Below are positions 24,975 through 48,678 of a stretch of 64,000 bases of DNA, one piece after another. Numbering within the stretch: the first letter of the stretch is position 1; every line of letters begins with the position of its first letter. The notes beneath the pieces were generated by a model, which saw only the letters and a list, made by a program, of their open reading frames with translations, had not been told where the DNA came from and ran no database searches. Both the position numbers and the translations under genes were made by a program. Location: positions 9,295 through 73,294 of the forward strand of contig CAJUHO010000004.1 of NCBI GenBank assembly GCA_910586195.1, in the 5' to 3' direction. The stretch is from an uncultured Bacilli bacterium. Lineage in GTDB: Bacteria > Bacillota_I > Bacilli_A > RF39 > UBA660.

Positions 24975-25125
24975 TAGTCAATAAACTAAATTGTATTTTT
25001 TTAGTAGTCGAATAGTAAACTAGATTGACTTTAAACAGTAAACTAAATCGTATTCAAATCGTACGCGAATAGTACAGTACACTAAATTGTATTTGGATAA
25101 TAATATCTTAAACTAATCGCTTACA
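24975..25125. repeat. cluster of five degenerate 15-16 bp direct repeats (TAAACTAAATYGTATT) plus GAATAGTA repeats; iteron-like
   Basis: Copies at 24983, 25017, 25039, 25081 and 25109 with irregular 22-42 bp spacing, in the non-coding region between the helicase stop and the terminator. Confidence 0.5.
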
Positions 25126-25217
25126 TTTTTACAGGGTACTTATTGTAGAGTAATTTCTAAACTTTTATATTATTTTGTAACCAAACGATTTCGTAATTTA
25201 ATTTTCAGTATAAATAG

Positions 25218-27944: not shown

Positions 27945-28003
27945 TACTCCACTTCCTTAATGCAATCTATAACACTTTCTATAATTTTAATTATTTCAAT
28001 ATT

Positions 28004-30936: not shown

Positions 30937-30947
30937 AATTTACCCTC

Positions 30948-33284: not shown

Positions 33285-33352
33285 ATTACCACTCCAAACA
33301 CTTTATATACATAAGTATAGCATAAAATAAACGTTCTTTTAACTGCCATAAC

Positions 33353-33381
33353 GAAAAAAGTAAGATAAATTTTACCTTACT
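33353..33381 (-). terminator. putative terminator after the Fic gene (agtaag...cttact, U6 on minus)
   Basis: 6-bp stem, A6 on + upstream. Confidence 0.35.
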
Positions 33382-33465
33382 ATCTATAACTCTTTTCTTA
33401 TTACTTTACTATTTATTTTTTCTTTGATTTTATTTCCATATACATATGACTTTTTTATCACAAAT

Positions 33466-34302: not shown

Positions 34303-34376
34303 AATTTAAACCTCCTAACTATTACTAGTATAACATATAAATTGAAGTTTTAGTTTATTATTAATCTCATTATAAA

Positions 34377-36431
34377 CTAATAGTTTATACTTTGCTCGAT
34401 AACTGTAGCTAATGATCTTAATTTAAATACTGACTTTTTTACTTCATATAATAAATACATTGTATTTTCAGGTAAACGATTTTTATCAATTGCACGTAAT
34501 ATTCCAACTTCTTCACTAGAAAGAGTTTTAAATATATTAAGCAATTCTTCTAAAGATGGTGAAACATTTGTATCTCTTAATAGCAAAAACAAATCGCGTG
34601 GTGATAAAGCTCCTAGTTGCTCCTGCTCCTTGTAAAATTTTGCAATCACATTGTTGATGATTTCTAATTCTCTTTGCTTTGTTGATATAGTTTCAGTAAG
34701 TTGTGAAAAACCATTAGGCACTTGAAAAATCAAAGATATTTCTTGCAGACTTAATCCATATTTAATTGTTGATTTAGCCACTTCAATCAATTGCTCTACT
34801 GTAATTAATGAAAATTTCTTTTTTCTAGCATGATTTATTATAGTATCTCCACTAAAATGAGGTCCAACTATTGCTACATAATCAGCACTATTTTTATCTT
34901 TATGGGTATCTATTGCTACATCGCTTATATCACCATGTGAAACTTGACCTCCGGATTTGGATTTTCCATCTATTATTGCTGTAATAATTTTCCCATTATC
35001 ATCCTTCCAATGTACAACAACATCTGTATCTCCTGGTCCACCAATTTTCTTTGTTTCAAAGCCCATAAAAGTCATCATTTCAGCAATTGATTCCTCAAAG
35101 GCAACTCCTACTGGTTTCCCTTCAGCATTTGGATTTTTGGAAGTATTATCTAAGCGATTAGCAATGATAGAAAGATAATCTTCAAAATTATTATCTAAAT
35201 ACCCACTATCTTTATTATTCTCTTCTTTTTTTTCAAGCTGTTCCATATTTAATAATGGTAAATCAGACACAAAACATATTCCTAGTGGTGTTGCTTTTAA
35301 ATGCAGATATTGTGGTTCTTCTAAAAGACCTGCTTCAATCAAAAATCCTGCTATCCATCTAGCCTTTTCTTGATTAAGGCCATACAATTTAGCTTGCGCA
35401 TATACATCATTACGAATTATATCGTTTTCAGCATACTTTATCATTTCACCTACAAATCTCATATGTGAATGAAGAATTCTAATAAAATCTAAATCATTTC
35501 CCGTTTCAATCCATGATTTAGCAGTAGCGGTTGCTACATATATATTTCGACCAACCTCTTCAATAAAACCTGCTACTTTTAAAAAAGGTAACATTGATTC
35601 AACACTACTTAATTTAAGATTAAATTCTTTACATATAAAGTCAAAAAATTTATTTCTAGTAATTTTCTCAGTTGCATATTGAACTATTATTCGTAAATTT
35701 TCTATTCTATTTGGGCTAGGTGCCCATATATTATATGTACTTCTCTTATTATGTAATTCTGGTGAAACCATTAAATTATTAAGTAATATAGCAATATCTT
35801 CAGGTGGAGCGGAAATTTCCAATTCATTTAAATCAAAATCCATTGGTTCTAAAATTTCAGAAGGGATTAAGTCCCATTCATTTAATACTTTTATACCATT
35901 ATCAGTTACTTTCCATTTTCGATTGCCAATTTCCTGTATTAAGTCTAAGACCTCAAGCCAATCCATCCTTCTTCTAATATTACTTAGGTGATTCCACTTT
36001 AAATCATAATCCTTACATATTGACTTATTAACCTGTTCTACTGTAGCAGGTTCTAATGCAATCAGATTTAATACCTCTCCAAATAAACGTATCTTTTCAT
36101 TAATAATATTAGCAAGCTGCTTTTTTGTTAAATTGTTTAAAAACTCATTCCCTTTCTCTGTTAAACATAATACTCCTGCTTGGTTACTTACAAGTCCAAT
36201 ACCTTTTAAAAAAGGCATGTACTCTCTCCATGGCAGTAGCTGATTAATTTCAAGTATATTTGGTATAGTATTCAAATCATTTGCCTTGTTCTCACCTACT
36301 AGTATAATAAGATTTTTAACCAAAACGAACCAATTAGTTTTACCGCCTCTTAAATCAGGAATCGACCAACTTTTTCTTCGCCATTCATTTCTTTTTTTAT
36401 CTAATTCTTGTCTATTAATAACCTCACTCAT
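34377..36431 (-). CDS. 684-aa protein with C-terminal Mrr-cat-like (PD-(D/E)xK restriction endonuclease) domain and large N-terminal winged-helix-like region
   Basis: FMGFETKKIGGPGDTDVVVHW...AIIDGKSKSG...DYVAIVGPHFSGDTIINHARKKKFSLITVEQLIE matches the Mrr catalytic core (GDGGID / QCK motifs). Confidence 0.55.
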   Translation of the reverse strand: MSEVINRQELDKKRNEWRRKSWSIPDLRGGKTNWFVLVKNLIILVGENKANDLNTIPNILEINQLLPWREYMPFLKGIGLVSNQAGVLCLTEKGNEFLNNLTKKQLANIINEKIRLFGEVLNLIALEPATVEQVNKSICKDYDLKWNHLSNIRRRMDWLEVLDLIQEIGNRKWKVTDNGIKVLNEWDLIPSEILEPMDFDLNELEISAPPEDIAILLNNLMVSPELHNKRSTYNIWAPSPNRIENLRIIVQYATEKITRNKFFDFICKEFNLKLSSVESMLPFLKVAGFIEEVGRNIYVATATAKSWIETGNDLDFIRILHSHMRFVGEMIKYAENDIIRNDVYAQAKLYGLNQEKARWIAGFLIEAGLLEEPQYLHLKATPLGICFVSDLPLLNMEQLEKKEENNKDSGYLDNNFEDYLSIIANRLDNTSKNPNAEGKPVGVAFEESIAEMMTFMGFETKKIGGPGDTDVVVHWKDDNGKIITAIIDGKSKSGGQVSHGDISDVAIDTHKDKNSADYVAIVGPHFSGDTIINHARKKKFSLITVEQLIEVAKSTIKYGLSLQEISLIFQVPNGFSQLTETISTKQRELEIINNVIAKFYKEQEQLGALSPRDLFLLLRDTNVSPSLEELLNIFKTLSSEEVGILRAIDKNRLPENTMYLLYEVKKSVFKLRSLATVIEQSINY

Positions 36432-36679
36432 ATTGACACCTCTATTTCAAAAAAATAAGCAGTATCCATCTTAAAAGATTAAATACTGTTATCTTATATA
36501 TAATAACACATTTTTCGACATTTTTTAGTATTTTAAAGTAATTTGTACTTAAAATTCTAAGTTTAAAGCACTTATTATCTTCAAAATATGATTTTTGATT
36601 AAATTACTATAATTTATTTTCATTTAAATACAGCCGTCCTAATACCCTTATAAATTTAATCAATGCAAGAGCTAAGTCC

Positions 36680-36962
36680 CTCCACCTGCATTTATGTGAT
36701 TAGATATTACAATGACATTGGGATCATTTCCATAAGCATCCAATATTCTTCTAACTCTCTCATCCCTATCAACTGTTTCATCACTACCTCTTACAATTGT
36801 GGTTGGTATTCCAAGTTCTTTTAATCGATCATACATATACTGTGCCGCTTTTAAATTTAAATCTTTTTCTTTTAATCCATTTGCTACCGCTCCTGGATCA
36901 CTACCACCATGTCCAGCATCTACCACGATTCCTTTAATCGCTCTATCGTTCATCCTTTTCAC
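36680..36962 (-). pseudogene. N-terminal fragment of the same Amidase_3 gene (MKRMNDRAIKGIVVDAGHGGSDPG...ISNHINAGG), truncated by the island
   Basis: Amidase_3 N-half motifs; reading frame terminates 2 codons into the island DNA (..GGT*). Confidence 0.75.
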
Positions 36963-37061
36963 CTCTAATATAAGTTATGACACTTTGGACTGTTTGTGAA
37001 AACTTTATTAAAACAAAAACGGAACTTAAAAATTCCGTTCCACTAAAATCTTATCAATCCT

Positions 37062-40000
37062 CTACTCAACCATACTCCTACCTTTAAGCTCTGCTTGCTG
37101 TACAATAATCTTTACTACTTCATCCCTTTTTGCCAATGGATAATTACAACGGATTAGCACCTTTTTAATTTCCACTCTCATATGGGCTCTTGCAGACATT
37201 TTAATATCCCAATCTATCGTCATATTACTATTCACTACATTCGTTAACTCCTTCGCCATTTCGACAAGAGACTCATCTACCATTTCTCCCTTTATATCAG
37301 CAGCATAACTTAGCACATCATAAAAAGCTTTTTCTTCCATAGATAAATGATACTTCTCACTAATCTGCGTTTCTTTTTCTATATCATTTTTCAATTTAAT
37401 CATTTTCTCAAATGTCTGTTCAACACATACATCAGAAAGCCGTTCATTATATCTTGTTACGATTTCCTTAAATTGAGAAGAAAATTTCTCCATTAATATA
37501 ATATTAGTAGTACCAATTCGTTCTATATACTCTTTTAACATGTGCTGTAATAGTTCAACTGCAACATTTTTAGAAGACATTTTTTCTAACTTCATCAAAT
37601 CGGCATCATCCATCAGCTTAAGTGAAGTTCTTTTTTGAACAACCCCGATATCATTATTAATTGCGCTTTCTAAAATATTAGCAATATCTTTATTAATCTG
37701 ACTAAGTTCAAAACTTCCACCTTGAATCTTATTCAAAAAAGATCTAACAGAAATCACATACAATATCTCATCCCTATATTGCTTTTCCACACTTCCTGTA
37801 CAAACAGAATACAACCGTTTAATATCATAACTATACTGTAAAAATTTCCTTTTTGTCTCTTCTCTTGCAAGAATAAAGTTAGCACCCCTATTAATCAAAT
37901 CATACCTACCCTGATTACCTAAAAAAGCAAAATTACTATAATCAAAAGCAGAAAAAAGTTCCCTTACTAATTTCAAGTTATCTAAAAGCAATAAAGAGGC
38001 ATTCTCATTATTAATAAACTGTTTTTGATCCCTTACTGTATATATTTCAAAAGCTTCTTCTAACCATTTTTTTAAACCAACATAGTCAACAATTAAGCCG
38101 CCGCTTTTATCTTTATATACTCGATTTACTCTAGCAATAGCCTGCATTAAATTATGAGATTTCATCGGTTTATCAATATACATAGTACCTAAACATGGCA
38201 CATCAAAGCCAGTAAGCCACATATTCACCACAATAGCAATCTTAAAATTTGAATTAGCATCTTTAAATAAAATCTCTAATTCTCTTTTTCTCTTAATAGT
38301 GGAAATCGCATCTTGCATCTCCTTAGAATCATCATTATTAGGAGTCACTATCATATGAACCTTATCTTTATAATCAGGTCTTAGCTCAAGAAACTTTTGA
38401 TACATGATAAAGGCACTTTGCCTAGATGAGGCAACAACCATAGCCTTACCAGCAGTAAAATCTTTTCTATCCTCATAATGACGAATAATATCCTTTACAA
38501 TATTTTCTAATCTATTAGGATTCTCTAAAACCTTCCTTGCCGTCGTCACTAAATGGTAATATTTTCCAATATCTGGAATATCCACCTCTTCCTCTGAGTC
38601 CAAATAGTGATAACAATTATCAATAGCCTCTACTGACTGCTCACTCAAATTACTATCTAGCATCCTTGATTCATATAAAATAGGAAGAGTCGAACCATCC
38701 TCAATTGCTTGAGTCATATCATAAATATCGATAACAGGTCCAAACACTTCAGTCGTTGAATGATCCCCATTTTCAATTGGTGTTCCTGTAAATCCAATAT
38801 AAGTAGCATTGGGAAAAGCATCATGCAAATACTTCGCTGTTCCATATCTCCTAACTGCTTCCATTTTTTGCATATCAAATTTCATTACTGCATCTACACC
38901 ATAATGACTTCGATGTGCCTCATCTGCCACTACTAAAATATCTTCTCTTGTACTTAATAGTCCTGTTGCCTCCTGAAATTTCTGTAATGTTGTAAAAATA
39001 ATGCCGCCAGAATTTCTCTCTGATATTTTATTCTTTAAATCCTGCCTATTTTCAATTTTGATAGGCATTTGCCTTAAAAAATTACTGCATCTACAAAACG
39101 TCTCATATAATTGATTATCCAAATCATTTCGATCTGTCACAACTATAACCGTAGAAGATGAAAGTTTCCTGATCATATTGGCAACATAAAACACCATAGA
39201 AAGACTTTTTCCAGATCCTTGTGTATGCCAAAGTATCCCTGCTCTACCATCCTTAGCATGTAAAGTGCGATCAATTGCTTTCTCTACACCATAATACTGA
39301 TGATAAAAGGAAAGTATTTTATCATCATTACTATACAAAATATAATGATTTAATAAACTTAGTAACACCTTTTTATCAAACATGCCATGTATTAATGACT
39401 CATAAGTATTTCTCTTTACTACCTCATCGTAACACGACGCCTTCTTCCATTCACTAAATCTAGAATAATCATAAGTAATAGTCCCCGCCTTTGCAACTAA
39501 TCCATCTGTAATTACTGAAAACTGATTATAATAAAATAGTTTAGGAATATAATCATTCATATATCCTTTTAGCCTTTGATAGGATTTTTCCAAATTGACA
39601 TTTCCACATGCCATACTTCCCAATTCAAAAACTACAACTGGCATTCCATTTATAAAAATAATAATATCAGGTCTTTTTACACTATGATCCACTATAGTAA
39701 ATTGATCACTAACCAAAAATTCATTATTGTTCACATTATCAAAATCTATAAGTCTAACAGTATGGTACTTTGTCTCTTCATTTATACATTCAGCCACACG
39801 AATACCAGTATGCAAATACTCACTAAATATTTTATTATTATTTAGTAAATTATTTTGATTAAAATCTTTAATAATTCGTACTGCTTCCCTTATCACTTCT
39901 TCAGTTAAATCTTCATTAATTCTAAACAAGGCATCTACCAAGTTTGCTTCTAATATAACGTCAGAGTAATCTCTTGGAATAGACTCTCCAGGCATATAAG

Positions 40001-40070
40001 AATAGCCTAAACTTTTTAAAAATTTAACCGTCAAAATATTTATATCCCTTTCTGTAGGCATTCTTATCAC
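37062..40070 (-). CDS. hsdR: type I restriction enzyme R subunit (second system)
   Basis: 1002 aa; HsdR_N; helicase motifs GSGKSL, VVADEAHRSH, C-terminal domain. Confidence 0.9.
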   Translation of the reverse strand: MIRMPTERDINILTVKFLKSLGYSYMPGESIPRDYSDVILEANLVDALFRINEDLTEEVIREAVRIIKDFNQNNLLNNNKIFSEYLHTGIRVAECINEETKYHTVRLIDFDNVNNNEFLVSDQFTIVDHSVKRPDIIIFINGMPVVVFELGSMACGNVNLEKSYQRLKGYMNDYIPKLFYYNQFSVITDGLVAKAGTITYDYSRFSEWKKASCYDEVVKRNTYESLIHGMFDKKVLLSLLNHYILYSNDDKILSFYHQYYGVEKAIDRTLHAKDGRAGILWHTQGSGKSLSMVFYVANMIRKLSSSTVIVVTDRNDLDNQLYETFCRCSNFLRQMPIKIENRQDLKNKISERNSGGIIFTTLQKFQEATGLLSTREDILVVADEAHRSHYGVDAVMKFDMQKMEAVRRYGTAKYLHDAFPNATYIGFTGTPIENGDHSTTEVFGPVIDIYDMTQAIEDGSTLPILYESRMLDSNLSEQSVEAIDNCYHYLDSEEEVDIPDIGKYYHLVTTARKVLENPNRLENIVKDIIRHYEDRKDFTAGKAMVVASSRQSAFIMYQKFLELRPDYKDKVHMIVTPNNDDSKEMQDAISTIKRKRELEILFKDANSNFKIAIVVNMWLTGFDVPCLGTMYIDKPMKSHNLMQAIARVNRVYKDKSGGLIVDYVGLKKWLEEAFEIYTVRDQKQFINNENASLLLLDNLKLVRELFSAFDYSNFAFLGNQGRYDLINRGANFILAREETKRKFLQYSYDIKRLYSVCTGSVEKQYRDEILYVISVRSFLNKIQGGSFELSQINKDIANILESAINNDIGVVQKRTSLKLMDDADLMKLEKMSSKNVAVELLQHMLKEYIERIGTTNIILMEKFSSQFKEIVTRYNERLSDVCVEQTFEKMIKLKNDIEKETQISEKYHLSMEEKAFYDVLSYAADIKGEMVDESLVEMAKELTNVVNSNMTIDWDIKMSARAHMRVEIKKVLIRCNYPLAKRDEVVKIIVQQAELKGRSMVE

Positions 40071-40117
40071 ACCTCTTTCTATAAGTTAATTATCTATTTC
40101 ATTGTTATAACAAGCAT

Positions 40118-41179
40118 CTAAATCCATGTCAAATCAATTTCGTTACTCATTAATTTAGGTAACAAGGCTTCTCGTAGTTGAAATAACACCTCATTTTCTT
40201 GATTATTTTTCTCTATTTTAGTAAGGATTTTATTAAAAGCATCCTCAACCTTTTCATTTTGCAAAACGGGAATTTGATAATCTTCAATACATCCTTTTGT
40301 TATAAAGTTGATAACAGAACCACGATAATTGGCCGTTAAATCTTTCAGGTTATATTGAATACTAAAATAAAGAAATCCTAAATGCTTTTGATCATAGGGA
40401 ATTAATACATAAGTCCTTTGGTAAGCATCAAATTTTCCTCGATAAAATTTAACATTAAAATCGCCATTTCCAGAAAGCAATATAGCACTAGCATCAAAAC
40501 TATAACTATCTATTTTTAAAGTATTATGGGAACAAGTAAAAAACGGATATTTACCATTCATAACACTATCATTAGCATCACATTTACCAGTAACAACAGG
40601 AAAAAAGTCACTTAATTTTCTAAACTTTTTTATTCCCGCCTCCAAATAATTTTTCTGATATATATTCATACCTATCTCATATAAACTATCATTCATTTGA
40701 TTGTTTAATTCTATTCTTTTATCGATATAAGACATAACCTTAGAAATCTTAATTTGTGTAGTCTCATCATGAAAGTCAAGAATTAAATTTTCTAAATCGC
40801 TTCTATTTACCGCTTCAAACACAGTATTCAATGCCTTCTTCTTTACCTTATCTACATTATTCTTAAGTAAATAATACAAATATTGATTATGACCATTTTT
40901 CATCTTAATAGAAGCAAGTCCCCTACCTATACACAAATCACAAGGTGCCATATTGATATCACCAACAGGCGCTCTAACACTCAATAACACACTGTCCTTT
41001 TTACCAATTTTTGTTGGAGTACTTGTCCACATTTCTATTTTGGGATATTTATTACCAAAAGTCTTCCTTCCCTGCATAAAGGCAAATCCTACCCCAGTCT
41101 GATTATAGGAAGTAGAACTAGGAGACTGTCCCATTACAACATAACACTCATCTTTTAATTTTTTTAACATAATACTCAC
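40118..41179 (-). CDS. hsdS: type I R-M specificity subunit (compact, two TRDs)
   Basis: Central KIDKRIELNNQMNDSL and C-terminal REALLPKLMS conserved repeats flanking two variable TRDs; 353 aa. Confidence 0.8.
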   Translation of the reverse strand: MSIMLKKLKDECYVVMGQSPSSTSYNQTGVGFAFMQGRKTFGNKYPKIEMWTSTPTKIGKKDSVLLSVRAPVGDINMAPCDLCIGRGLASIKMKNGHNQYLYYLLKNNVDKVKKKALNTVFEAVNRSDLENLILDFHDETTQIKISKVMSYIDKRIELNNQMNDSLYEIGMNIYQKNYLEAGIKKFRKLSDFFPVVTGKCDANDSVMNGKYPFFTCSHNTLKIDSYSFDASAILLSGNGDFNVKFYRGKFDAYQRTYVLIPYDQKHLGFLYFSIQYNLKDLTANYRGSVINFITKGCIEDYQIPVLQNEKVEDAFNKILTKIEKNNQENEVLFQLREALLPKLMSNEIDLTWI

Positions 41180-42100
41180 CTACGCAATCATGATAACATC
41201 ATCTATATTAATGTTACCATCCTTATCCAACCGACACTCAATATGAAAGGGCAAATTTTCTTCATCCTTTACCACTTCAATATTAAAACTATAATTATTA
41301 TTACTCTGATCAATTAAATCACTATAATTAACAATAGAATTAACTTCAAAATTGTAATATAGTTTGATTTTTTCATTCACTATATCAAATAATTCTCCAC
41401 TATCTAACAAAGAATCAATATTCGCATCTACTAATAGATAATTAGATTGAATCTGATTAATTTCTAGAAGCCTATTTTGCAGTTCCCCCAATTCATAAAA
41501 AATCTCTATTTTTTTACCTGTTATTCTTTCAAATTCATCGCTCAATTCTTCAGGAAAATCATTTTTATTTTTTGTTAAAAACAAAAACTTCTGACTTGCT
41601 ATTTTACCAGCATACTGTAGCATTGATTCCCATTGTACAGCATCCTTAAAACCCTTATCAGACTCACCATTTTTCCCAGAAAAAGGTTTGTTTTTATAGA
41701 TAGCCCTATCAAGAAGATTATTAAGGGTATCCCGTTCCTTTGGAATTAATACCATATTTATCTTTTCCTGTTCTAGATAATCATTAATTCTTCTATCTAA
41801 TCCCGTTTCAAAGTCCTTTACCTTCTCAGGTTCGTCAATACCATAAAATACCCGGAACTTACTAAGTAATTCCCTATAATTACTATCATCTTCTTCAAAC
41901 TTTTCACAAATCTGACACTTTAATTCCTTCATCACAATTTCAGTAACATTAATATGACATTTATCACTTAAATCATTCGTATTTATAAAATCTATAAATT
42001 CCAAATAATTTCTACCAAATGTAAACATAGAATAATCTTTTATGCTCTTCTCTTTTAAAATACTAGTATCAAAAAATATCTCAATCATTTCCATAGCCAA
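41180..42100 (-). CDS. PIN-like domain protein embedded between hsdM and hsdS
   Basis: N-terminal IFFDTSIL (PIN motif 1 Asp), later acidic positions (VTEIVMKEL; DKGFKDAVQWESML); overlaps hsdM by 20 nt and abuts hsdS. Confidence 0.5.
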   Translation of the reverse strand: MAMEMIEIFFDTSILKEKSIKDYSMFTFGRNYLEFIDFINTNDLSDKCHINVTEIVMKELKCQICEKFEEDDSNYRELLSKFRVFYGIDEPEKVKDFETGLDRRINDYLEQEKINMVLIPKERDTLNNLLDRAIYKNKPFSGKNGESDKGFKDAVQWESMLQYAGKIASQKFLFLTKNKNDFPEELSDEFERITGKKIEIFYELGELQNRLLEINQIQSNYLLVDANIDSLLDSGELFDIVNEKIKLYYNFEVNSIVNYSDLIDQSNNNYSFNIEVVKDEENLPFHIECRLDKDGNINIDDVIMIA

Positions 42101-43577
42101 TATCCCTCAATACTTTCTTCAGTTCTACATCTAGCTGTTGAGCTTCTTCCATTTGAGCTACTAATTTTTCTATTAACTTTGCCATTTTCTCTTCTGAAAA
42201 AGAAGCATCAACTTGAGATTTTTTCATACCAACATACTGGCTTGGATTTAATAAAAAATCTTTTTCCTCTATGTCTAAAAGGGTAGCATCTCTACAAAAT
42301 CCTAAGACATCTTCATAATTCTTAGTGTTCTGATAATCGTGATATGTATTTGCAATTTTCATGATATTTTCGCTAGAAAAATCTCTTAATTTTCTAGTAA
42401 TCATAGAACCTAACCCAGTAGCATCTATAAATAAAGTATGGCCTTTCCGTTTTTTCTTTTTATTTAATATCCAAATAGAGCAAGGAATCGTAACTGAATA
42501 AAACAAATTAGATGGCATTGCAACAATACAGTCCACTAAATCATCTATCACCAATTTACTGCGAATAAAAGCTTCACGCCCACTCGATGTTAAAGCACTA
42601 TTAGGTAAAACAATCGCTGCCCTTCCTACTCCAGACAATTTAGAAATTACATGTTGCAACCAAGCATAATTCGCATTTTTCTTTGGAGGAATTTCATACT
42701 TCCATCTACAATCATTTAACAACAAGTCCTGTCCCCAATCTCCCATATTAAAGGGAGGATTGGCCAATATAAAATCTGCCATTAAACCTTTATGTAAATC
42801 TTCATGGAATGTATCCGCTGCAAATTCTCCTAAGTTCCCCTCTATAGATCGAATGGCCAAGTTCATCTTCGCTAATTTCCAAGTAGTAGGATTTTTTTCT
42901 TGCCCAAAGAAAGAAGCATTTCGGACATTTCCATTATGTTCCTCTATATATTTAACACATTGAATCAACATACCACCAGAGCCACAAGCAGGATCATATA
43001 TTCTTCCTCCCTTTGGTTCAAGCATTTCCACCATCGTTTTAACAATACTGGATGGTGTATAAAATTCTCCTCCCCTTTTTCCATCTTTACTAGCAAATTT
43101 CTCTAAAAAATATTCATATATTTGTCCCAAAGAATCATCATGAGACTCTAAATCTAAATTCGTAAACAAATCTATAATCTCGCCCAAATTTACACTTCTA
43201 AAATCTGGACTATTATATATCTTAAATAGCACTCCTTTAAGGGATGGATTTTCCTTTTCTATTAAATCTAGTGCATTATCTAAAATCTCTCCAATATTGT
43301 AATCTTTAGAATGCTTTACAATATAATCCCATCTCGCATTTTCTGGCACAAAGAAAATACTATCTTCCATATAAGCATCTCTATCTTCTTCTAAACCGTA
43401 CCCATCTTGTACAAGAAATTTATACTTTTTTTCAAAGGTAGAAGAGATATACTTTAAAAAGATCATTTCCAACACTACAAATTTATAATTAGTAATCGAT
43501 AGACCACCAATCATTTTATCTGCTGCAATCCACAATTCTTTCTCTATTTCTTTTATATTTTGTTTCATTTTAAACAC
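42081..43577 (-). CDS. hsdM: type I R-M N6-adenine methyltransferase subunit (second system)
   Basis: HsdM_N; SAM motif DPACGSGGML; catalytic NPPFN. Confidence 0.9.
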   Translation of the reverse strand: MFKMKQNIKEIEKELWIAADKMIGGLSITNYKFVVLEMIFLKYISSTFEKKYKFLVQDGYGLEEDRDAYMEDSIFFVPENARWDYIVKHSKDYNIGEILDNALDLIEKENPSLKGVLFKIYNSPDFRSVNLGEIIDLFTNLDLESHDDSLGQIYEYFLEKFASKDGKRGGEFYTPSSIVKTMVEMLEPKGGRIYDPACGSGGMLIQCVKYIEEHNGNVRNASFFGQEKNPTTWKLAKMNLAIRSIEGNLGEFAADTFHEDLHKGLMADFILANPPFNMGDWGQDLLLNDCRWKYEIPPKKNANYAWLQHVISKLSGVGRAAIVLPNSALTSSGREAFIRSKLVIDDLVDCIVAMPSNLFYSVTIPCSIWILNKKKKRKGHTLFIDATGLGSMITRKLRDFSSENIMKIANTYHDYQNTKNYEDVLGFCRDATLLDIEEKDFLLNPSQYVGMKKSQVDASFSEEKMAKLIEKLVAQMEEAQQLDVELKKVLRDIGYGND

Positions 43578-43715
43578 TTCTTTCTACTACCTACCCCATC
43601 TACCCTTTCTTCTCTATGCTCATTATAACATCATTTTACTGAAATGACGACATAATATAATAACTACAAAAAAACTATTGATTTTCTACCATCAATAGTT
43701 CAAAGATTACAATTC

Positions 43716-44810
43716 TTATTCACCCTTACTAAGTTTAACCTTCGTTTTATGTTCTTTTCCATCACGGTTATAAGTAATCTCAATTTCTTCTCCCACTTTA
43801 TATTTATAAAGCTCATAACGTAGATAAGCAGATGATGCTACTTGTTCTCCATTAATTGCAATAATGACATCACCCTCTTTTAAATCAGAACTAGCAGCAC
43901 CCGTTTTTTCTACTACTTTCACAACGATAACTCCCATCTTAATAGCGTCATCTATTCTATAGGGATTACGATATTTGTCATTATCTTCCACATTAATCAT
44001 ATTGATTCCCAAAACAGGCCATTCAATCTTTTCACCCTTTTCTAGGGAATCAATATGGCTCATCGCATACTCAATAGGAATGGCAAAACCCATACCTTCA
44101 ATTTCTTCTTGTACTAGTTTCATAGAATTAATACCAATTACTTCAGCATTAGAATTTAGTAATGGTCCACCACTATTTCCTGGATTAATAGCAGCATCTG
44201 TCTGTAACACCCTCATAACCCAATCATTACTATTAGAGTTTCCTACACTAACAGAAACCATACGATCCTTTCCAGAAAGACGACCAGCAGTAACACTACC
44301 ACGATAACTATATCCAAGTGGGGAACCAATCGTAAAAACTGTATCTCCTAAACGCATCTTCGTAGAATCCCCAATGGTTGCAACTGCCTTAATATGTTTT
44401 TTATCCACACTAATAACGGCTAAGTCTAAGTACTCATCAGAACCTAATACCTTACCGCTAATTTCTGTATCATCAGATAATACTATTTTAATATCAGACA
44501 TATCGGAAATCACATGATGGTTTGTCATAATATAAGCCTTATTATTATCTGTTTTATAAATAAAGCCTGTTCCAGTAGACGCCAATTGATTATTCTGAAA
44601 ACCCTGTATTAACACAACAGCATCATAAACCTTTTCTACAGCATCAGCCAAAGAACCATCCTCTACAATAACCTTACCATTTTCTTTTACTACTGTAGTT
44701 TTTAACATAGAGTCCATAAGGGGGCTAAACTTAAAAACAGTACATGTCAAAACTGCCCCTACCACGAAAGATCCAATCACTATAAAAACCGTTTTTACAC
44801 TTTTATTCAT
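43716..44810 (-). CDS. HtrA/DegP-family trypsin-like serine protease with PDZ domain, membrane-anchored
   Basis: N-terminal TM, catalytic triad context (HHVI, D, GNSGGPL) and C-terminal PDZ. Confidence 0.85.
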   Translation of the reverse strand: MNKSVKTVFIVIGSFVVGAVLTCTVFKFSPLMDSMLKTTVVKENGKVIVEDGSLADAVEKVYDAVVLIQGFQNNQLASTGTGFIYKTDNNKAYIMTNHHVISDMSDIKIVLSDDTEISGKVLGSDEYLDLAVISVDKKHIKAVATIGDSTKMRLGDTVFTIGSPLGYSYRGSVTAGRLSGKDRMVSVSVGNSNSNDWVMRVLQTDAAINPGNSGGPLLNSNAEVIGINSMKLVQEEIEGMGFAIPIEYAMSHIDSLEKGEKIEWPVLGINMINVEDNDKYRNPYRIDDAIKMGVIVVKVVEKTGAASSDLKEGDVIIAINGEQVASSAYLRYELYKYKVGEEIEITYNRDGKEHKTKVKLSKGE

Positions 44811-45756
44811 TAATATCTACACTCCTCTCAATCGTCGCTAATTCTGTCCAATTAGCAGGAAATCCCATTAAATTCATTATCTTATCAATAGAAATTGTTT
44901 TCAAATTATACGCTAAATTACTAATAGTTCTATCCAGTTCCAAAGTCATATTCAAAAAATCCTCATAATCAAGCACCTGTTTCATAATAATAATGAGAGC
45001 AAACAAATCATTTTTACCATAGCAATATTCACCATTTTCCTTCTCAATCTTTAATATTTGATGGTATATTGTATCATCAATACATCGCTGTGTCCTATTA
45101 TCATAAACAATATCTTCATGAGCACAAAGATTTCTATAGTTTGCAAGAATTGGCAAATACGTAATCATCTCATCCCTAGTAATTCGATAAATCTCACAAA
45201 TTTCCTGTTGATCCTCTTTTTTTAATACAGTAAACATTTCACTAACGATTCCAAAAGATAAAACTTTCACCAAAATCCACATCGGAATATATCCATAATT
45301 ACTAACATAATGTTGAGTAGCAGTATGTTGTTGTCCATTGACCCGTATCTGCCTCTTCATCTTTTTAATTAAATCATTTACTTGGCGTTGTTTTTCAGGT
45401 TTACTTGTAAAATTTTTATTTTTTAAATAATCTCTTTCTCGATAACCATATTTTTTCGATAATTGATAAGAAGTAATAGACTTTAAATTATTTTCGATAA
45501 TCAATAAATTCTTAAATATAATATTTCGAAATGCACGGTCAAATAGAAAAAGACTATATAACTCTTCAAAACTAGTTCCTTCTATATATTTTTTATTAGA
45601 ATTAGAAATGAAGAAAGGATAACGATAACCATTAATAAAGAAATAATTCTCGCGTAATAAAATCTTTTTTGCAAATGATTCGTCTTGAATTACTAATCCT
45701 TTATACTTTAAAATCTCTAGCTGTTCGTCTAAATTTTTAAACTTTTTTTCTACCAT
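44803..45756 (-). CDS. Abi_2 family (AbiD/AbiF-like) abortive-infection protein
   Basis: N-terminus KNLDEQLEILKYKGLVIQDESFAKKILLRENYFFINGYRYPF characteristic of Abi_2; stop overlaps the htrA start by 8 nt. Confidence 0.7.
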   Translation of the reverse strand: MVEKKFKNLDEQLEILKYKGLVIQDESFAKKILLRENYFFINGYRYPFFISNSNKKYIEGTSFEELYSLFLFDRAFRNIIFKNLLIIENNLKSITSYQLSKKYGYRERDYLKNKNFTSKPEKQRQVNDLIKKMKRQIRVNGQQHTATQHYVSNYGYIPMWILVKVLSFGIVSEMFTVLKKEDQQEICEIYRITRDEMITYLPILANYRNLCAHEDIVYDNRTQRCIDDTIYHQILKIEKENGEYCYGKNDLFALIIIMKQVLDYEDFLNMTLELDRTISNLAYNLKTISIDKIMNLMGFPANWTELATIERSVDINE

Positions 45757-45849
45757 TATACGTCACCTATATTAAATTATACCACAAAATTATTTATAAA
45801 AATATGAAAATTATATGAAACATGTTATAATGCCAAAAGGAGGAAAAAT

Positions 45850-46827
45850 ATGCCAGCTAGTATTACACATGCCTATTTTGCACAAGACTTATATAACTCT
45901 TTTGACTCTGCTAAAAAACAACTTTTAAGTCCCTTTTTAAAAAAACTTATGATGTTTGCACAAGGCAGTGACCCCCTAATGTTCTATCATATTTTAAGTC
46001 TAAAAAGCGGAAAAAGTGTTAGGCCATTACAAAAAATGTTACATAATACGGATACTCAACGTTTTTTTATTCACCTAATTACTTACATAAAAGAAAATCA
46101 CTACGAAAAAAATCCAGAAATTCTAGCTTACCTTTATGGAAGTATTACTCACTATGTCTTAGATAGTACCATCCATCCATTTGTCATTTACCAAACAGGA
46201 TTTTTCGATAAGACAAAAAAGGAAACTTATAAATACAACAATCAACATGCCATCATGGAATCCTACTTAGATATGTACATGGTTCAAAAAAGAACTGGGC
46301 AAAATCCATATACATTTTCTATGAAAGAATTTCTATTTGAAAAACCCATTTTTTCAGAGCCTTTAAAAAATACCATTAATCACGCTTATCTAAAAACATA
46401 TCATCTAGAAAATATGGCTACTATTTATCAACGTTCTTTTCAAGAAATGGCAATCTTTCTACAATTATTTCGGTATGATTCATTCGGTATCAAAAAATTC
46501 TTCTACCAAACACTTGATATCTTCACACCTAAAAAGTGCTTTAAAATGAAAGCATTATCTTACCATGTTTCACTAAAAGAAAATGAGATTTTTTTAAACA
46601 ATGAACATCATACATGGTGTTATCCTTCTAAAAAATCTTTACAAAGTAGGGAGTCCTTTGATGAGCTTTATCAAAAAGCTCTTACGGATTGCCAAAATAT
46701 CATTCAAAAACTAGATCAGTATTTTAATGGAGAAAATATTTGTCTAACTTCTGTTTTTACAAATAAAAGTTATATCAGTGGACTTGACTGCAAACTAGAT
46801 TTAAACTTTAAATATTTTAAGTATTAA
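45850..46827 (+). CDS. hypothetical protein (possibly zinc-dependent phospholipase C-like; weak)
   Basis: GGAGG RBS; N-terminal ITHAYFAQD His-rich start resembles Zn_dep_PLPC proteins; weak. Confidence 0.4.
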   Translation: MPASITHAYFAQDLYNSFDSAKKQLLSPFLKKLMMFAQGSDPLMFYHILSLKSGKSVRPLQKMLHNTDTQRFFIHLITYIKENHYEKNPEILAYLYGSITHYVLDSTIHPFVIYQTGFFDKTKKETYKYNNQHAIMESYLDMYMVQKRTGQNPYTFSMKEFLFEKPIFSEPLKNTINHAYLKTYHLENMATIYQRSFQEMAIFLQLFRYDSFGIKKFFYQTLDIFTPKKCFKMKALSYHVSLKENEIFLNNEHHTWCYPSKKSLQSRESFDELYQKALTDCQNIIQKLDQYFNGENICLTSVFTNKSYISGLDCKLDLNFKYFKY

Positions 46828-46876
46828 TCCCGTATAAATCACTAAATTTAGAAACATAATATAATCAGGTGATATT

Positions 46877-47932
46877 ATGTTTTACAGATACGAAATAAAA
46901 AAAGTAAATGACGAAGATGTTCTTTATCTATATCTAACAATGGCCTATGAATTTTCAAAAGAATTAGGGGTAGAAGCGGACGATACTGATATTAAAAGAA
47001 GGACAAAAAACTTCATAAAAAATAACAATATTGATTTTAAAGGACGAAAAGCCTTTTTGATTATAGATGGTATTATTGTTAAAACTGTCGATATAGAAAA
47101 AAATGAAGACGTCGAATTAATCAAGCAAACTCATGATTATAGTGATCAACAATACTTAATTACAATAGAATTAGAAAATCATATTGTCGTAGAAATGACT
47201 TTAAAAGAATATTTGCTAGGTGTTTTAGCAACGAATGCTACTATCAGTATGAATATCGAAACACTTAAAGCGTTAACAGTACTATATCGAACGTATGCTT
47301 TCAAAGAAATGGAAGAAAACAAAAAAATTATGGCCATTAATCGTTATCAAATATACAAACCACTATCTTATTATAAGCTAGTATGGATTCATGACTATAA
47401 TTCTACATATCATAAATTATTGAAGGCCATACAAGAAACAGACCGAGAATTTGTCACATATGACGGTAAATATATTACCCCATTTATTCATGTTTGTAGT
47501 AATGGTTATACATCAGCAGATCCCGATTTTCCATATCTTGAAAGAAGACCAAGTTTATGGGATTATGCATCTCCCTTATTCTTAAAAGTAACTGATTATG
47601 ATTATACACAATTAGAAAAAATATTTAAACAAAAAAAAGAAAGCATCAAAAATATGGAAATCTTATCATTAACAGATAATAACCGGATAAAAAGTATTAA
47701 AATTGGTAAAGAAATCATGGATGGGATTGCTTTCAAACAACTGTTGAATTTACCCTCTGATGATATTACAATCATTATCAATGAAAATAACATTCGTTTT
47801 ATTACTAGAGGATATGGTATTAGTTTAGGACTTAGCGAATTTGGAGCCAATGAAATCGCAGATAGTGGCTGTAACTATGCTGATATTATTCATTATTATT
47901 ACCCTAATGTTATTATTAAACGTTTTATCTAG
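46877..47932 (+). CDS. spoIID: SpoIID/LytB-family protein (stage II sporulation protein D-like lytic transglycosylase)
   Basis: LKEYLLGVLATNATISMNIETLKALTVLYRTYAF matches the SpoIID core motif. Confidence 0.65.
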   Translation: MFYRYEIKKVNDEDVLYLYLTMAYEFSKELGVEADDTDIKRRTKNFIKNNNIDFKGRKAFLIIDGIIVKTVDIEKNEDVELIKQTHDYSDQQYLITIELENHIVVEMTLKEYLLGVLATNATISMNIETLKALTVLYRTYAFKEMEENKKIMAINRYQIYKPLSYYKLVWIHDYNSTYHKLLKAIQETDREFVTYDGKYITPFIHVCSNGYTSADPDFPYLERRPSLWDYASPLFLKVTDYDYTQLEKIFKQKKESIKNMEILSLTDNNRIKSIKIGKEIMDGIAFKQLLNLPSDDITIIINENNIRFITRGYGISLGLSEFGANEIADSGCNYADIIHYYYPNVIIKRFI

Positions 47933-48608
47933 ATACTTTGGTATCTTTTTTTATTTCTTCTATATATTCTACTACTCCATTTGTGATTACTGCTGCAACC
48001 TTTTGTTGATATTTTTCAGTTTGTAATAAATAGCGCTCATTAGGATTTGATAAAAAACCACACTCAATCAAAACTCCTGGTACACGTGTATTCCGGTACA
48101 AATACAAATCTGTCGTAATTAATTTCCGCTTTGTATATGTATCCTTTCTAAAGTTTTCCATAATTTTTTCTCCAAGTATTTTATTTTTGGGATTAATATT
48201 ATTATAGAGAACCTCTGCTCCTTGATGATAAGAATTATTATACCAATTCAGATGAATTGATAAATATAAATCACTCTTCACCTTTTGAATAAATAAAATT
48301 CTGCGATATAAGTCCCCTCTTTTTTTTGCACTATCCCATTTACTGGATAAATCCTCATCTTCTTCTCGAATTAAATATACAACAGCACCCTGTTGCAACA
48401 AAGTATTTCTCAAAACCTTTGATATTTCTAAATTTAAATCCTTTTCTAAAATTTTGCCATATCGTGTTCCAGGATCCCTACCACCATGCCCAGGATCTAC
48501 GGTTATTACTATACCTTTTAAAGGAAGATAGGAAGCGTCCGCTATTTGTATTAGAAAAATACAAAAAAAGCTCATTAATAATAGAAAAAACTTATATTTA
48601 TGAATCAT
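47925..48608 (-). CDS. cwlD: N-acetylmuramoyl-L-alanine amidase, CwlD-like (germination-specific)
   Basis: Signal/TM, then GIVITVDPGHGGRDPG and the Amidase_3 E/H ligands; 227 aa. Confidence 0.7.
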   Translation of the reverse strand: MIHKYKFFLLLMSFFCIFLIQIADASYLPLKGIVITVDPGHGGRDPGTRYGKILEKDLNLEISKVLRNTLLQQGAVVYLIREEDEDLSSKWDSAKKRGDLYRRILFIQKVKSDLYLSIHLNWYNNSYHQGAEVLYNNINPKNKILGEKIMENFRKDTYTKRKLITTDLYLYRNTRVPGVLIECGFLSNPNERYLLQTEKYQQKVAAVITNGVVEYIEEIKKDTKVSR

Positions 48609-48678
48609 ATTATCACCTTAGTAATTATATGTATATAAAGATTAAAAAAGCCTAGTAAAATTCTAGGCAAATACAAAA

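What the first reader, a model, noticed from the sequence alone, without database searches (positions are those of the whole stretch)
41180..42100. PIN-like gene inserted between hsdM and hsdS of the second type I R-M operon
A 306-aa ORF overlaps the hsdM end by 20 nt and abuts the hsdS start. It begins with IFFDTSIL (a PIN motif-1 aspartate) and has further conserved acidic positions. Accessory nuclease or Abi genes embedded in type I R-M operons (PrrC, RloC and others) act as backup defenses that are triggered when restriction is inhibited. This may be an analogous PIN-type RNase.
Basis: partly seen in the sequence, partly recalled or inferred. Interest (0 to 1): 0.55.

Follow-up and report, generated by a model that had tools for sequence, protein, structure and literature searches.

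The report
PIN nuclease gene inside restriction operon
A real, conserved gene for a PIN-type nuclease sits between the methylase and specificity genes of a type I restriction-modification operon, and the same arrangement recurs in dozens of distantly related bacteria, making it a good untested candidate for a back-up anti-phage weapon wired to the restriction system.

Summary
A 304-aa gene (ATG 42094 to stop 41180, minus strand) overlaps the hsdM stop by 14 nt and ends where hsdS begins.

It is a true PIN_12 (PF16289, former DUF4935) protein: 65.6 bits against a cutoff of 32, a confident AlphaFold model, and acidic residues D9/E57/D146/D151 conserved across 68 unique relatives. A C-terminal alpha+beta domain has no known relative.

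The embedding is not accidental:
- 84 of 91 resolvable homologue loci (26-100% identity) read hsdM-PIN-hsdS.
- More distant relatives sit in other slots of the same type I family.
- Some relatives are fused to the HsdR C-terminal tail.
- PIN divergence tracks HsdM divergence.

The PIN is optional. Among operons sampled by HsdM alone, most have hsdM-hsdS adjacent. Others carry different defence modules in the slot (PDDEXK, Abi_C, PUA-like, HEPN-like).

No antitoxin gene is present.

Best reading: an accessory, probably latent PIN nuclease functionally coupled to the type I complex. It would work like PrrC or Ronin but belongs to neither family. The mechanism is inferred, not shown.

In this lineage HsdR has lost its catalytic lysine (ELK to ELG).

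Verdict: new member of a known kind, of moderate interest.

The parts
41180..42094 (-). PIN_12-family gene (304 aa; longest ORF extends to the TTG at 42100)
   Evidence: ORF; identical to P0001; Pfam PF16289, 65.6 bits vs GA 32; SD-like GAGGGA 8 nt upstream of the ATG
41549..42073 (-). PIN domain, aa 8-182. Predicted catalytic residues: D9 (42068-42070), E57 (41924-41926), D146 (41657-41659), D151 (41642-41644), D179 (41558-41560). Invariant loop KPFxG...SDKGFKD..WE
   Evidence: Pfam match covers profile positions 1-172 of 172; conservation in 30 and 68 sequences; five beta strands alternating with helices in the AF2 model; VapC structural hits
41183..41512 (-). C-terminal alpha+beta domain, aa ~195-304 (three helices plus a four-stranded antiparallel sheet), no known family
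   Evidence: AF2 models; no significant PDB match, only cystatin/monellin/NTF2-like topology at E>=0.04; no Pfam/NCBIfam/PADLOC/PHROG hit; less conserved than the PIN domain (0.20 vs 0.36 mean identity)
42081..43577 (-). hsdM (type I methyltransferase); motifs DPACGSGG and NPPF intact; its last 14 nt overlap the PIN start
40118..41179 (-). hsdS (specificity subunit); likely start is the ATG at 41170 with AGGTGA overlapping the PIN stop codon
37062..40070 (-). hsdR (HSDR_N, SWI2_SNF2, T1R_D3-like, T1RH-like_C); Walker A GSGKS and DEAH intact; nuclease motif III reads ELG instead of ELK (G151 codon 39618-39620) and the QxxxY Gln is Arg (R166)
43622..43650 (-). promoter-like site (TCGTCA-17-TATAAT with TG) upstream of hsdM; consistent with one operon but not above chance
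37016..37041 (-). terminator-like hairpin plus T-run just after the hsdR stop; no such site between hsdM, PIN, hsdS and hsdR

Best explanation
The gene encodes a two-domain protein. The N-terminal domain is a VapC-like PIN domain of family PIN_12 with an intact metal-binding acidic site. The C-terminal alpha+beta domain is of unknown family. The gene is co-transcribed and apparently translationally coupled with hsdM and hsdS of a type I restriction-modification operon. Most likely it is an accessory immune effector of that operon. In this reading it is a nuclease (RNase more probable than DNase, by analogy with VapC-group PINs) made together with the methyltransferase core. It would be kept harmless in uninfected cells, probably by association with the HsdM2S (or R2M2S) complex or by its own C-terminal domain. 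It would be unleashed during phage infection, for example when an anti-restriction protein perturbs the complex, giving a second layer of defence. Shown here: the gene, the PIN family membership, the conserved active-site residues, the conserved embedding, its optional nature, and the absence of an antitoxin gene. Inferred: nuclease activity, substrate, latency, physical association with HsdMS, and the trigger.
For: (1) It is a PIN. PF16289 scores 65.6 bits against GA 32 over the full profile. The AF2 model has pLDDT 91.4 and pTM 0.87, with five strands alternating with helices. VapC2 (3zvk), VapC (4xgr) and AF1683 (1w8i) are among the Foldseek hits.
(2) The active site is under constraint. 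D9, T10, E57, Q61, D146, D151, E156 and E187 are invariant or nearly so in 68 unique sequences down to ~26% identity. The fourth acidic residue is D179 or D176 in a canonical T/S-x-(N/D)-x-x-(D)-F motif.
(3) Linkage to type I R-M goes far beyond adjacency. hsdM-PIN-hsdS occurs in 84/99 loci, or 84/91 where both neighbours are visible, with the same short overlap onto hsdM.
(4) More distant relatives lie in other slots of the same HsdR family: hsdS-X-PIN-hsdR, X-PIN-hsdR and hsdM-hsdS-hsdR-PIN.
(5) The ~460-487-aa PIN_12 forms carry the HsdR C-terminal tail (T1RH-like_C; up to 33.8 bits vs GA 26.8) at their C-terminus. Others carry it at the N-terminus. That HsdR region is purported to contact the methyltransferase (PMC2602864).
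(6) PIN identity co-varies with HsdM (Spearman 0.77) and HsdR (0.64) identity.
(7) It is optional and interchangeable, as an accessory would be. Of 80 loci picked by HsdM alone, 63 have hsdM-hsdS adjacent and 4-5 have the PIN. Others have PUA-like, Abi_C or HEPN-like inserts, and a plasmid relative has a YhcG PDDEXK nuclease in the slot.
(8) There is no antitoxin-sized ORF and no terminator inside the operon. A nuclease made with HsdM and HsdS must therefore be controlled post-translationally.
(9) There are precedents. PrrC/EcoprrI and Ronin are effectors held by HsdMS and released by anti-restriction proteins. TgvAB and the HEC systems are embedded defences. Cosus is a protein reported to have a 'PIN12' domain that blocks T7 and loses activity on T12A/D14A/D96A.
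Against: No experiment or computation here shows nuclease activity, toxicity, RNA versus DNA preference, binding to HsdM/HsdS or any trigger. The window's own clade lacks the HsdR-tail module, so the docking argument rests on relatives. One homologue (P0054) lies outside any R-M operon, next to Lamassu-like genes. [quoted passage not shown] PIN_12 proteins can therefore act autonomously. The locus survey is biased towards the nearest relatives, and many loci are related strains. The correlation statistics use non-independent pairs. PADLOC, PHROGs and NCBIfam give no defence annotation.
Confidence: 0.55

Rival explanations
1. Autonomous single-protein defence nuclease (Cosus-like). It senses phage by itself through its C-terminal domain. 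It sits inside the R-M operon only because embedding gives co-regulation and co-transfer; there is no physical or functional coupling to HsdM/S/R.
For: Cosus/Brc24, reported to have a PIN12 domain, protects against T7 as a lone integron cassette. P0054 is not in an R-M operon. A full-length structural relative is annotated in a metagenomic siphovirus. DUF4935 genes were described as mostly monocistronic. The slot also hosts unrelated defence modules, as expected of a generic cargo site. The window clade has no HsdR-tail.
Against: The same family is found in several different slots of the same type I family. Independent fusions to the HsdR C-terminal tail occur. The slot is kept, with translational overlap, from 100% down to ~26% identity. 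All three are hard to explain by hitch-hiking alone.
Confidence: 0.25
2. Addiction (post-segregational killing) toxin that stabilises the R-M operon or its mobile element. HsdM/HsdS act as the antitoxin, and loss of the operon frees a long-lived PIN toxin.
For: VapC-like PIN with no cognate antitoxin gene; translational coupling to hsdM and hsdS; many loci lie near relaxase, Rep, integrase or recombinase genes; Matelska et al. discuss TA/R-M links.
Against: Type I systems are not known to need addiction modules. The toxin would have to outlive HsdMS. The slot alternatives (Abi_C, PUA-like, HEPN-like, PDDEXK) are typical anti-phage modules. The physical mechanism overlaps with the best explanation, so this differs mainly in the selective benefit.
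Confidence: 0.08
3. Integral DNA-processing subunit of the restriction enzyme. The PIN cuts or degrades DNA reeled in by HsdR, supplementing the HsdR nuclease, or replacing it in this lineage.
For: In the window lineage HsdR has lost the catalytic Lys (ELK to ELG) and the QxxxY Gln, while the helicase motifs and the PIN are intact. The equivalent EcoR124I K167A mutant translocates but cannot cut. HsdR-tail fusions would place PIN_12 at the HsdR docking site.
Against: All 25 other unique full-length HsdR sequences from PIN-linked operons keep D...ELK, so the PIN does not generally replace the HsdR nuclease. The PIN is absent from most related operons. PIN_12 clusters with VapC-type PINs, whose characterised members are RNases (and general knowledge of VapC).
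Confidence: 0.07
4. Catalytically irrelevant or regulatory protein, for example an assembly or specificity factor for the methyltransferase.
For: A Prevotella intermedia study speculated that an unannotated gene between hsdM and hsdS might affect specificity. Whether that gene is a PIN_12 was not verified.
Against: Near-invariance of the acidic residues and of the SDKGFKD..WE loop across 68 sequences argues for a conserved enzymatic site. Most related operons function without the gene.
Confidence: 0.05

Closest known systems
PrrC anticodon nuclease in the EcoprrI type I operon (and RloC)
   Same: A nuclease gene embedded in a type I R-M operon with no antitoxin gene. In the known model, the effector is held latent by the R-M complex and released by a phage anti-restriction peptide (summarised).
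   Different: No ABC-ATPase or HEPN-type anticodon-nuclease domain is detected. The slot differs (hsdM-X-hsdS; to my knowledge prrC lies between hsdS and hsdR). The PIN fold is unrelated. Latency and trigger are untested.
Ronin (HsdM + HsdS + RonA toxin; Silas et al., bioRxiv 10.1101/2023.04.06.535777)
   Same: An effector tightly linked to hsdM/hsdS. There, HsdMS suppresses the toxin and Ocr/ArdA trigger cell death. Ronin lacks a restriction nuclease, and the window lineage's HsdR has lost its catalytic Lys.
   Different: RonA is a 61-aa membrane protein, not a PIN. Ronin has no hsdR at all, whereas hsdR is present here and carries an intact nuclease motif in all other PIN-linked operons.
Cosus (Brc24), integron-cassette anti-T7 defence with a 'PIN12' domain (bioRxiv 10.1101/2024.07.02.601719)
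   Same: Described as a PIN12-domain protein whose defence depends on predicted PIN residues. It is the only experimental anti-phage evidence found for this kind of domain.
   Different: It is a stand-alone integron cassette, not R-M embedded. [quoted passage not shown]
VapC toxins of VapBC toxin-antitoxin systems
   Same: Same structural group of PIN domains; VapC structures are among the fold matches; D...E...D...D acidic site and a T-x-N/D-x-x-D-F C-terminal motif.
   Different: No VapB-like antitoxin gene. It is twice the size, with a long helical insert and an extra C-terminal domain. The upstream gene is hsdM.
Embedded defence genes found by 'guilt by embedding' (HEC-01..09, PDC candidates; TgvAB in V. 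cholerae VPI-2)
   Same: The same organisational principle: independent or cooperating defence modules inside Hma/BREX/type I clusters. HEC-03 uses a VapC-like PIN plus an ABC ATPase.
   Different: PADLOC-DB v2.0.0, which includes PDC candidate models (PDC-S15 is among its hits), gives no hit for this protein. No partner ATPase is present. PDC-S15 shares only the HsdR-tail module with the long PIN_12 forms.

Membership tests
PIN_12 / DUF4935 (Pfam PF16289), PIN domain-like superfamily | Sequence match to the family profile above the curated threshold | tested here: met
   65.6 bits vs gathering score 32, E=9e-18, protein aa 8-182 on profile positions 1-172 of 172; all 54 homologues carry PF16289
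PIN_12 / DUF4935 (Pfam PF16289), PIN domain-like superfamily | Three-layer alpha/beta/alpha fold with a five-stranded parallel sheet | tested here: met
   The AF2 model (pLDDT 91.4) has strands 4-8, 46-51, 113-115, 169-173 and 195-199 alternating with helices. VapC2 3zvk (prob 1.0, TM 0.59 on target), 4xgr and 1w8i are among the hits, but E-values are weak (>=1e-3) and Rossmann-like enzymes score similarly. Strand order and parallelism were not checked directly.
PIN_12 / DUF4935 (Pfam PF16289), PIN domain-like superfamily | Four to five conserved acidic residues forming the metal site | tested here: met
   D9, E57, D146, D151 and E187 are invariant or nearly so in 68 sequences; the fourth site is D179 or D176.
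PIN_12 / DUF4935 (Pfam PF16289), PIN domain-like superfamily | Metal-dependent nuclease activity | not testable with these tools
   Needs biochemistry
VapBC type II toxin-antitoxin system | Small upstream antitoxin gene (VapB) forming a two-gene operon with the toxin | tested here: not met
   The upstream gene is hsdM and the downstream gene is hsdS. Only 20-49-aa ORFs lie in other frames or strands, inside coding sequence.
PrrC / RloC anticodon nucleases | N-terminal ABC-type ATPase plus C-terminal anticodon-nuclease (HEPN-like) domain | tested here: not met
   No such Pfam, NCBIfam or PADLOC hit at E<=1
PrrC / RloC anticodon nucleases | Gene embedded in a type I (or III) R-M operon | tested here: met
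   hsdM-PIN-hsdS-hsdR; conserved in 84/91 resolvable loci
PrrC / RloC anticodon nucleases | Latency through binding the R-M complex and activation by a phage anti-restriction factor | not testable with these tools
   Only indirect support: translational coupling and HsdR-tail fusions in relatives
Ronin decoy system | hsdM + hsdS without hsdR, plus the small membrane toxin RonA | tested here: not met
   A full-length hsdR is present. The effector is a 304-aa soluble PIN protein. In this lineage only, HsdR lacks the catalytic Lys.
PADLOC phage-defence candidates from embedded genes (PDC, HEC) | Match to a PADLOC-DB v2.0.0 model | tested here: not met
   0 families at E<=1 for the window protein and none for P0038, P0053, P0054 and P0103

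The most novel reading that the evidence does not exclude
[quoted passage not shown] They would dock on the HsdM2S core, through an HsdR-like tail in the long forms and through the novel C-terminal alpha+beta domain in the hsdM-PIN-hsdS clade. There they would act as guard effectors that fire when phage anti-restriction proteins attack the complex. The lineage in this window, whose HsdR has lost its catalytic lysine while PIN, HsdM and HsdS stay intact, would then be a natural intermediate between a true restriction enzyme and a Ronin-like decoy that only senses and kills.
Probability: 0.25. Interest if true: 0.75.

Novelty: new member of a known kind. Interest (0 to 1): 0.55.

Why it matters
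Accessory effectors wired into restriction systems (PrrC, RloC, Ronin, TgvAB) show how bacteria layer their immunity and punish phage anti-restriction proteins, but only a handful are understood. This work defines a compact and widespread candidate. The family has about 2,500 clusters at 50% identity, and a large clade of it is fixed in the hsdM-X-hsdS slot. The predicted active site is clear, the sensor or docking domain is unexplored, and some relatives carry an HsdR-tail adaptor that suggests how effectors are recruited to the methyltransferase core. If the coupling is real, it offers a simple system for studying how a PIN nuclease is kept latent without an antitoxin. It would also affect how type I operons with 'extra' genes are annotated, and how they are handled when cloning R-M systems or engineering gut Firmicutes and Bacteroidota.

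Tried and rejected
- **HsdR replacement.** Rejected as a general rule: all 25 other unique full-length HsdR sequences from PIN-linked operons keep D...ELK. Only the window lineage has ELG.
- **Fragment of hsdS or hsdM.** Rejected.
- **VapBC-type TA pair.** Rejected: no antitoxin ORF.
- **PDB sequence search** with the family profile found nothing at E<=10.
- **Full-length Foldseek against PDB** gave only weak matches, mixing Rossmann-like enzymes with VapC.
- **C-terminal domain alone** gave no significant match.
- **tblastn against plasmid and phage collections** found no homologue of the PIN protein.
- **PHROGs, PADLOC and NCBIfam** gave nothing useful.
- **An HsdR-tail in the window clade** was searched for with a custom HMM and not found.
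- **Literature searches** for DUF4935/PIN_12/PF16289 and for genes between hsdM and hsdS found no description of this arrangement. The only possible lead is an unannotated gene in Prevotella intermedia 17F, which I could not verify.
- **Promoter and terminator scans** are at chance level overall and only show consistency with a single operon.
Full report
**1. The observation**

The ORF list shows a 306-aa ORF at 41180..42100 on the minus strand, starting from a TTG. It lies between a 498-aa ORF (42081..43577) and a 353-aa ORF (40118..41179), with a 1002-aa ORF further downstream (37062..40070).

Pfam, PADLOC and NCBIfam identify these three neighbours as hsdM (N6_Mtase + HsdM_N), hsdS (Methylase_S) and hsdR (HSDR_N, SWI2_SNF2, T1R_D3-like, T1RH-like_C).

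The sequence at the junction reads GGCTATGGAAATGATTGA. An ATG at 42094 lies 14 nt inside hsdM and is preceded by GAGGGA 8 nt upstream. The 304-aa product from that ATG is 100% identical to database protein P0001, and gene callers used the same 14-nt overlap in homologous contigs. I therefore take 42094 as the start.

The stop codon TAG (41180-41182) is followed directly by GTG. An ATG at 41170 preceded by AGGTGA is the likelier hsdS start.

A first type I operon of a different family (EcoEI_R_C-type HsdR, then hsdM, then hsdS, with no embedded gene) lies at 28004..33284. Every descriptive element of the finding is correct.

**2. What the protein is**

Pfam gives PIN_12 (PF16289, formerly DUF4935) at 65.6 bits against a gathering score of 32, covering the whole 172-position profile with residues 8-182. 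No other library gives a meaningful hit.

A search of 5.8 billion proteins found 54 homologues, nearly all about 300 aa and aligned over 99% of the query down to 36% identity.

The 30-sequence alignment shows an invariant K134-P-F-x-G ... S145-D-K-G-F-K-D151 ... W155-E156 block. D9-T10, E57, Q61 and a TKNxNDF motif are invariant or nearly so.

In a wider set of 68 unique sequences from fetched loci, D9, T10, E57, Q61, D146, D151, E156 and E187 stay invariant or nearly so. The last acidic position alternates between D179 (close clade) and D176 (distant clade, S-x-D). This is the usual PIN arrangement: D after strand 1, E in the helix after strand 2, D before the helix after strand 3, and T/S-x-D after strand 4.

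AlphaFold2 with the alignment gives a confident model (pLDDT 91.4, pTM 0.87). It has five strands alternating with helices, a long helical insert after strand 2, and a separate C-terminal unit of three helices and a four-stranded antiparallel sheet.

Foldseek against the PDB gives only weak full-length matches. VapC2 (3zvk, probability 1.0, TM 0.59 on the target), a mycobacterial VapC (4xgr) and AF1683 (1w8i) are among them. A profile search of PDB sequences finds nothing.

The C-terminal domain, modelled alone (pLDDT 85), has no significant structural relative. It shows only cystatin/monellin/NTF2-like topology at E>=0.04.

In the viral structure library, the one strong match is a 366-aa 'PIN like domain' protein of a metagenomic siphovirus, aligned over its full length (E=4e-13).

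Matelska et al. (PMC5499597) first recognised DUF4935 as a VapC-group PIN domain with 4-5 acidic residues and an uncharacterised alpha/beta C-terminal region. They listed its function as unknown and its genes as 'usually mono-cistrons'.

**3. The embedding is conserved**

I fetched contigs encoding seven homologues spanning 100% to 32% identity. I also fetched one locus from the genome collection and 80 loci from metagenomes using the family alignment.

I then called ORFs and labelled them with a PIN profile and with HsdM/HsdS/HsdR profiles seeded from the window's two operons.

- Of 99 loci, 84 have hsdM immediately upstream and hsdS immediately downstream on the same strand.
- Counting only loci where both neighbours are visible, that is 84 of 91.
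- Three more loci are hsdM-166aa-hsdS-317aa-PIN-hsdR or X-PIN-hsdR.
- Of the three 'hsdM-other' loci, one (L031) has a split PIN gene.
- Only one distinct locus (P0054: L018, with L019 a shorter contig of the same region) lies outside an R-M operon, beside genes with LmuB_C, CTD7 and MC3 domains.

The distant clade (340-372 aa, about 30% identical over the PIN domain only) keeps the same slot. It is often followed by hsdS invertons with a recombinase.

Two still more distant family members, taken from an all-against-all profile search, are again in type I operons of the same HsdR family but in other positions. P0064 (482 aa) follows hsdR in hsdM-hsdS-hsdR-PIN. P0103 precedes hsdR, which is followed by McrBC. 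That search found 2,527 clusters at E<=1e-3, 830 at <=1e-10 and 174 at <=1e-30.

Pairwise identity of the PIN proteins correlates with that of the adjacent HsdM (Spearman 0.77), HsdR (0.64) and HsdS (0.50). The PIN protein evolves faster: for example 26% identity where HsdM is 61%. The pairs are not independent, so these values describe co-divergence and are not significance tests.

**4. The PIN is optional and the slot is a cargo site**

tblastn of HsdM against annotated plasmids finds about 50%-identical relatives. In these, hsdS nearly always abuts hsdM.

In Clostridium estertheticum pCF005-B, the slot instead holds a YhcG/DUF1016 PDDEXK nuclease that likewise overlaps the hsdM end.

Eighty IMG/VR loci were selected only by HsdM similarity (44-61% identity). 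The breakdown is:

| What follows hsdM | Loci |
|---|---|
| hsdS directly | 63 |
| PIN | 4 (plus one at a contig edge) |
| Other insert | 10 |
| Unresolved | 3 |

The other inserts include PUA-like proteins (two loci), an Abi_C protein, a 143-aa protein with an RNNLFH (Rx4H, HEPN-like) motif, a tyrosine recombinase and an IS fragment.

The closest HsdM relative in that set (61% identity, L103) has no PIN. The PIN is therefore an accessory of this R-M family, not a required subunit. The hsdM-hsdS junction is a recurrent site for defence-type cargo.

**5. Evidence bearing on physical coupling**

The 460-487-aa PIN_12 proteins carry a segment at their C-terminus that matches the last 55-110 positions of T1RH-like_C, the C-terminal domain of this HsdR family. 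Scores against a gathering score of 26.8 are P0065 32.2 bits, P0073 33.8 and P0064 27.4.

A custom HMM of the last 150 residues of the HsdR proteins confirms this. It also finds the same module at the N-terminus of P0172, P0174 and P0183.

PADLOC's candidate PDC-S15 matches only this tail, both in HsdR and in the long PIN_12 forms. The tail therefore appears to be a module shared by different proteins.

The HsdR C-terminal domain is described as the part 'purported' to interact with the methyltransferase (PMC2602864). These fusions therefore suggest that PIN_12 effectors are brought to the M2S core.

The window's 304-aa clade has no detectable tail. For this clade the argument is indirect. Its own evidence is the translational overlap with hsdM, the abutting hsdS start, the absence of internal terminators and the absence of any antitoxin-sized ORF.

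**6. Most likely mechanism**

A VapC-like PIN nuclease with an intact site, made from the same mRNA as HsdM and HsdS and lacking an antitoxin, must be restrained after translation or be specific for non-self.

Two precedents have an R-M core restraining an effector until a phage anti-restriction factor interferes. One is PrrC with EcoprrI. The other is Ronin, where HsdMS suppresses the RonA toxin and Ocr, ArdA or Aop1 trigger cell death.

Embedded but independently acting defences are also known: TgvAB and HEC-02 to HEC-08. Cosus, a protein reported to have a PIN12 domain, blocks T7 as a single gene. [quoted passage not shown]

I rate 'accessory nuclease functionally coupled to the type I complex, latent until infection' at 0.55. 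I rate 'autonomous defence nuclease merely carried in the operon' at 0.25. Addiction toxin, DNA-processing subunit and non-catalytic factor share the rest.

RNase rather than DNase activity is an inference from the VapC grouping.

**7. A lineage-specific twist in hsdR**

Alignment to EcoR124I HsdR places the window's FELG under IELK (E165-x-K167).

All 25 other unique full-length HsdR proteins from PIN-linked operons read ELKS..RE(E/D). Only the window and its sister contigs L002-L005 read ELGSMACGN. Those sister contigs are 99.46% identical across 36898..50093.

This HsdR deviates at 28-30 of 260-271 columns that are >=95% conserved in the others, against a median of 1. The changes include K151G and Q166R, the Gln of QxxxY.

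HsdM of the same lineage is also on a long branch (22 of 181), but it keeps DPACGSGG and NPPF. HsdR keeps GSGKS and DEAH. The PIN keeps all 20 of its family-invariant columns, although that count is too small to be significant on its own.

EcoR124I K167A cannot cleave DNA and is restriction-deficient, yet it translocates at about the wild-type rate. The operon in this window may therefore be restriction-impaired while still making HsdM, HsdS, a translocating HsdR and the PIN.

That resembles the step from a restriction enzyme towards a Ronin-like decoy. It is the basis of the 'novel case', but it is one lineage and it is untested.

**8. Comparison with what is known, and novelty**

The protein is a member of Pfam PIN_12. 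It is not a member of the PrrC/RloC, VapBC or Ronin families; their defining features were tested and not met (see the membership table). PADLOC-DB v2.0.0 has no model for it.

The library I could search holds no description of a conserved hsdM-PIN_12-hsdS cassette. [quoted passage not shown]

The general idea of accessory nucleases embedded in type I operons is well established. I therefore classify this as a new member of a known kind, with moderate interest (0.55).

It is a well-defined, widespread and experimentally tractable candidate, with hints of a shared docking adaptor, but it has no demonstrated function.

Noticed in passing
window 39618..39620 (HsdR G151) and HsdR R166; hsdR 37062..40070 (-): The HsdR of this operon has ELG instead of the catalytic ELK of nuclease motif III, and Arg instead of the QxxxY Gln. 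All 25 other unique full-length HsdR from PIN-linked operons keep ELK. This lineage deviates at 28-30 near-invariant columns against a median of 1, while the helicase motifs are intact. The enzyme is probably cleavage-deficient but still a translocase (EcoR124I K167A precedent).
   Followed up: yes
P0064, P0065, P0068, P0073, P0079 (C-terminal ~55-110 aa); P0172, P0174, P0183 (N-terminal ~aa 30-74); locus L187: Long PIN_12 proteins are fused to the extreme C-terminal module of HsdR (T1RH-like_C positions ~215/270-325). The same module is all that PADLOC candidate PDC-S15 shares with HsdR and with these proteins. It looks like a portable adaptor that could recruit different effectors to the type I methyltransferase core.
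   Followed up: partly
L100 7484-8563; L104 5506-6003; L128 6474-6929; L121 5673-6470; L175 6493-6924: In related type I operons the same hsdM-hsdS slot carries other defence-type genes: a YhcG/DUF1016 PDDEXK nuclease, PUA-like proteins, an Abi_C protein, and a 143-aa protein with an RNNLFH (HEPN-like Rx4H) motif. The junction behaves as a cargo hotspot.
   Followed up: partly
window ~22100..36898: Synteny with sister-strain contigs (99.46% identity) stops at 36898, about 165 bp after hsdR. In the window the variable side holds a truncated amidase ORF (36672..36962) straddling the break, an Mrr-like wHTH protein (34377..36431), a Fic protein (33466..34302), a complete EcoEI-like type I operon (28004..33284), an AAA_30/SF1 helicase-like protein (25599..27944) and a large serine recombinase (22129..23790). 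This looks like a defence-laden mobile island. Sister strains instead have HTH/M78 peptidase/Mob_Pre genes there.
   Followed up: partly
window 43716..45756 (-): An Abi_2/AbiD-family gene (44803..45756; PADLOC AbiD E=2e-57) overlaps by 8 nt an HtrA-like trypsin-PDZ protease gene (43716..44810) immediately upstream of hsdM. This is a possible two-gene Abi module next to the R-M operon.
   Followed up: no
L031 ~2400-2981 and the following ORF: In one metagenomic locus the PIN gene is split into two ORFs (194 aa plus a second PIN-matching ORF) between hsdM and hsdS. This is an apparent frameshift or pseudogene, showing the gene can decay while the operon persists.
   Followed up: no
P0066 (270 aa): A protein whose first ~185 residues match the PIN domain and whose residues 158-248 match the HsdR C-terminus very strongly (E=1.8e-41). 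It may be a deletion fusing the PIN gene to the end of hsdR, or an assembly artefact.
   Followed up: no
L043, L056-L061, L066, L072-L099 (distant clade loci): Many hsdM-PIN-hsdS operons of the distant clade are followed by inverted partial hsdS genes and a ~328-354-aa recombinase. These are phase-variable specificity shufflons, so the PIN gene is common in phase-variable type I systems of (often human-gut) metagenomes.
   Followed up: no
literature: PMC5608340 (Prevotella intermedia 17F, system Pin17FORF945P): [quoted passage not shown] It may be a PIN_12 homologue, which would mean such operons are tolerated in E. coli. I could not verify the sequence.
   Followed up: no
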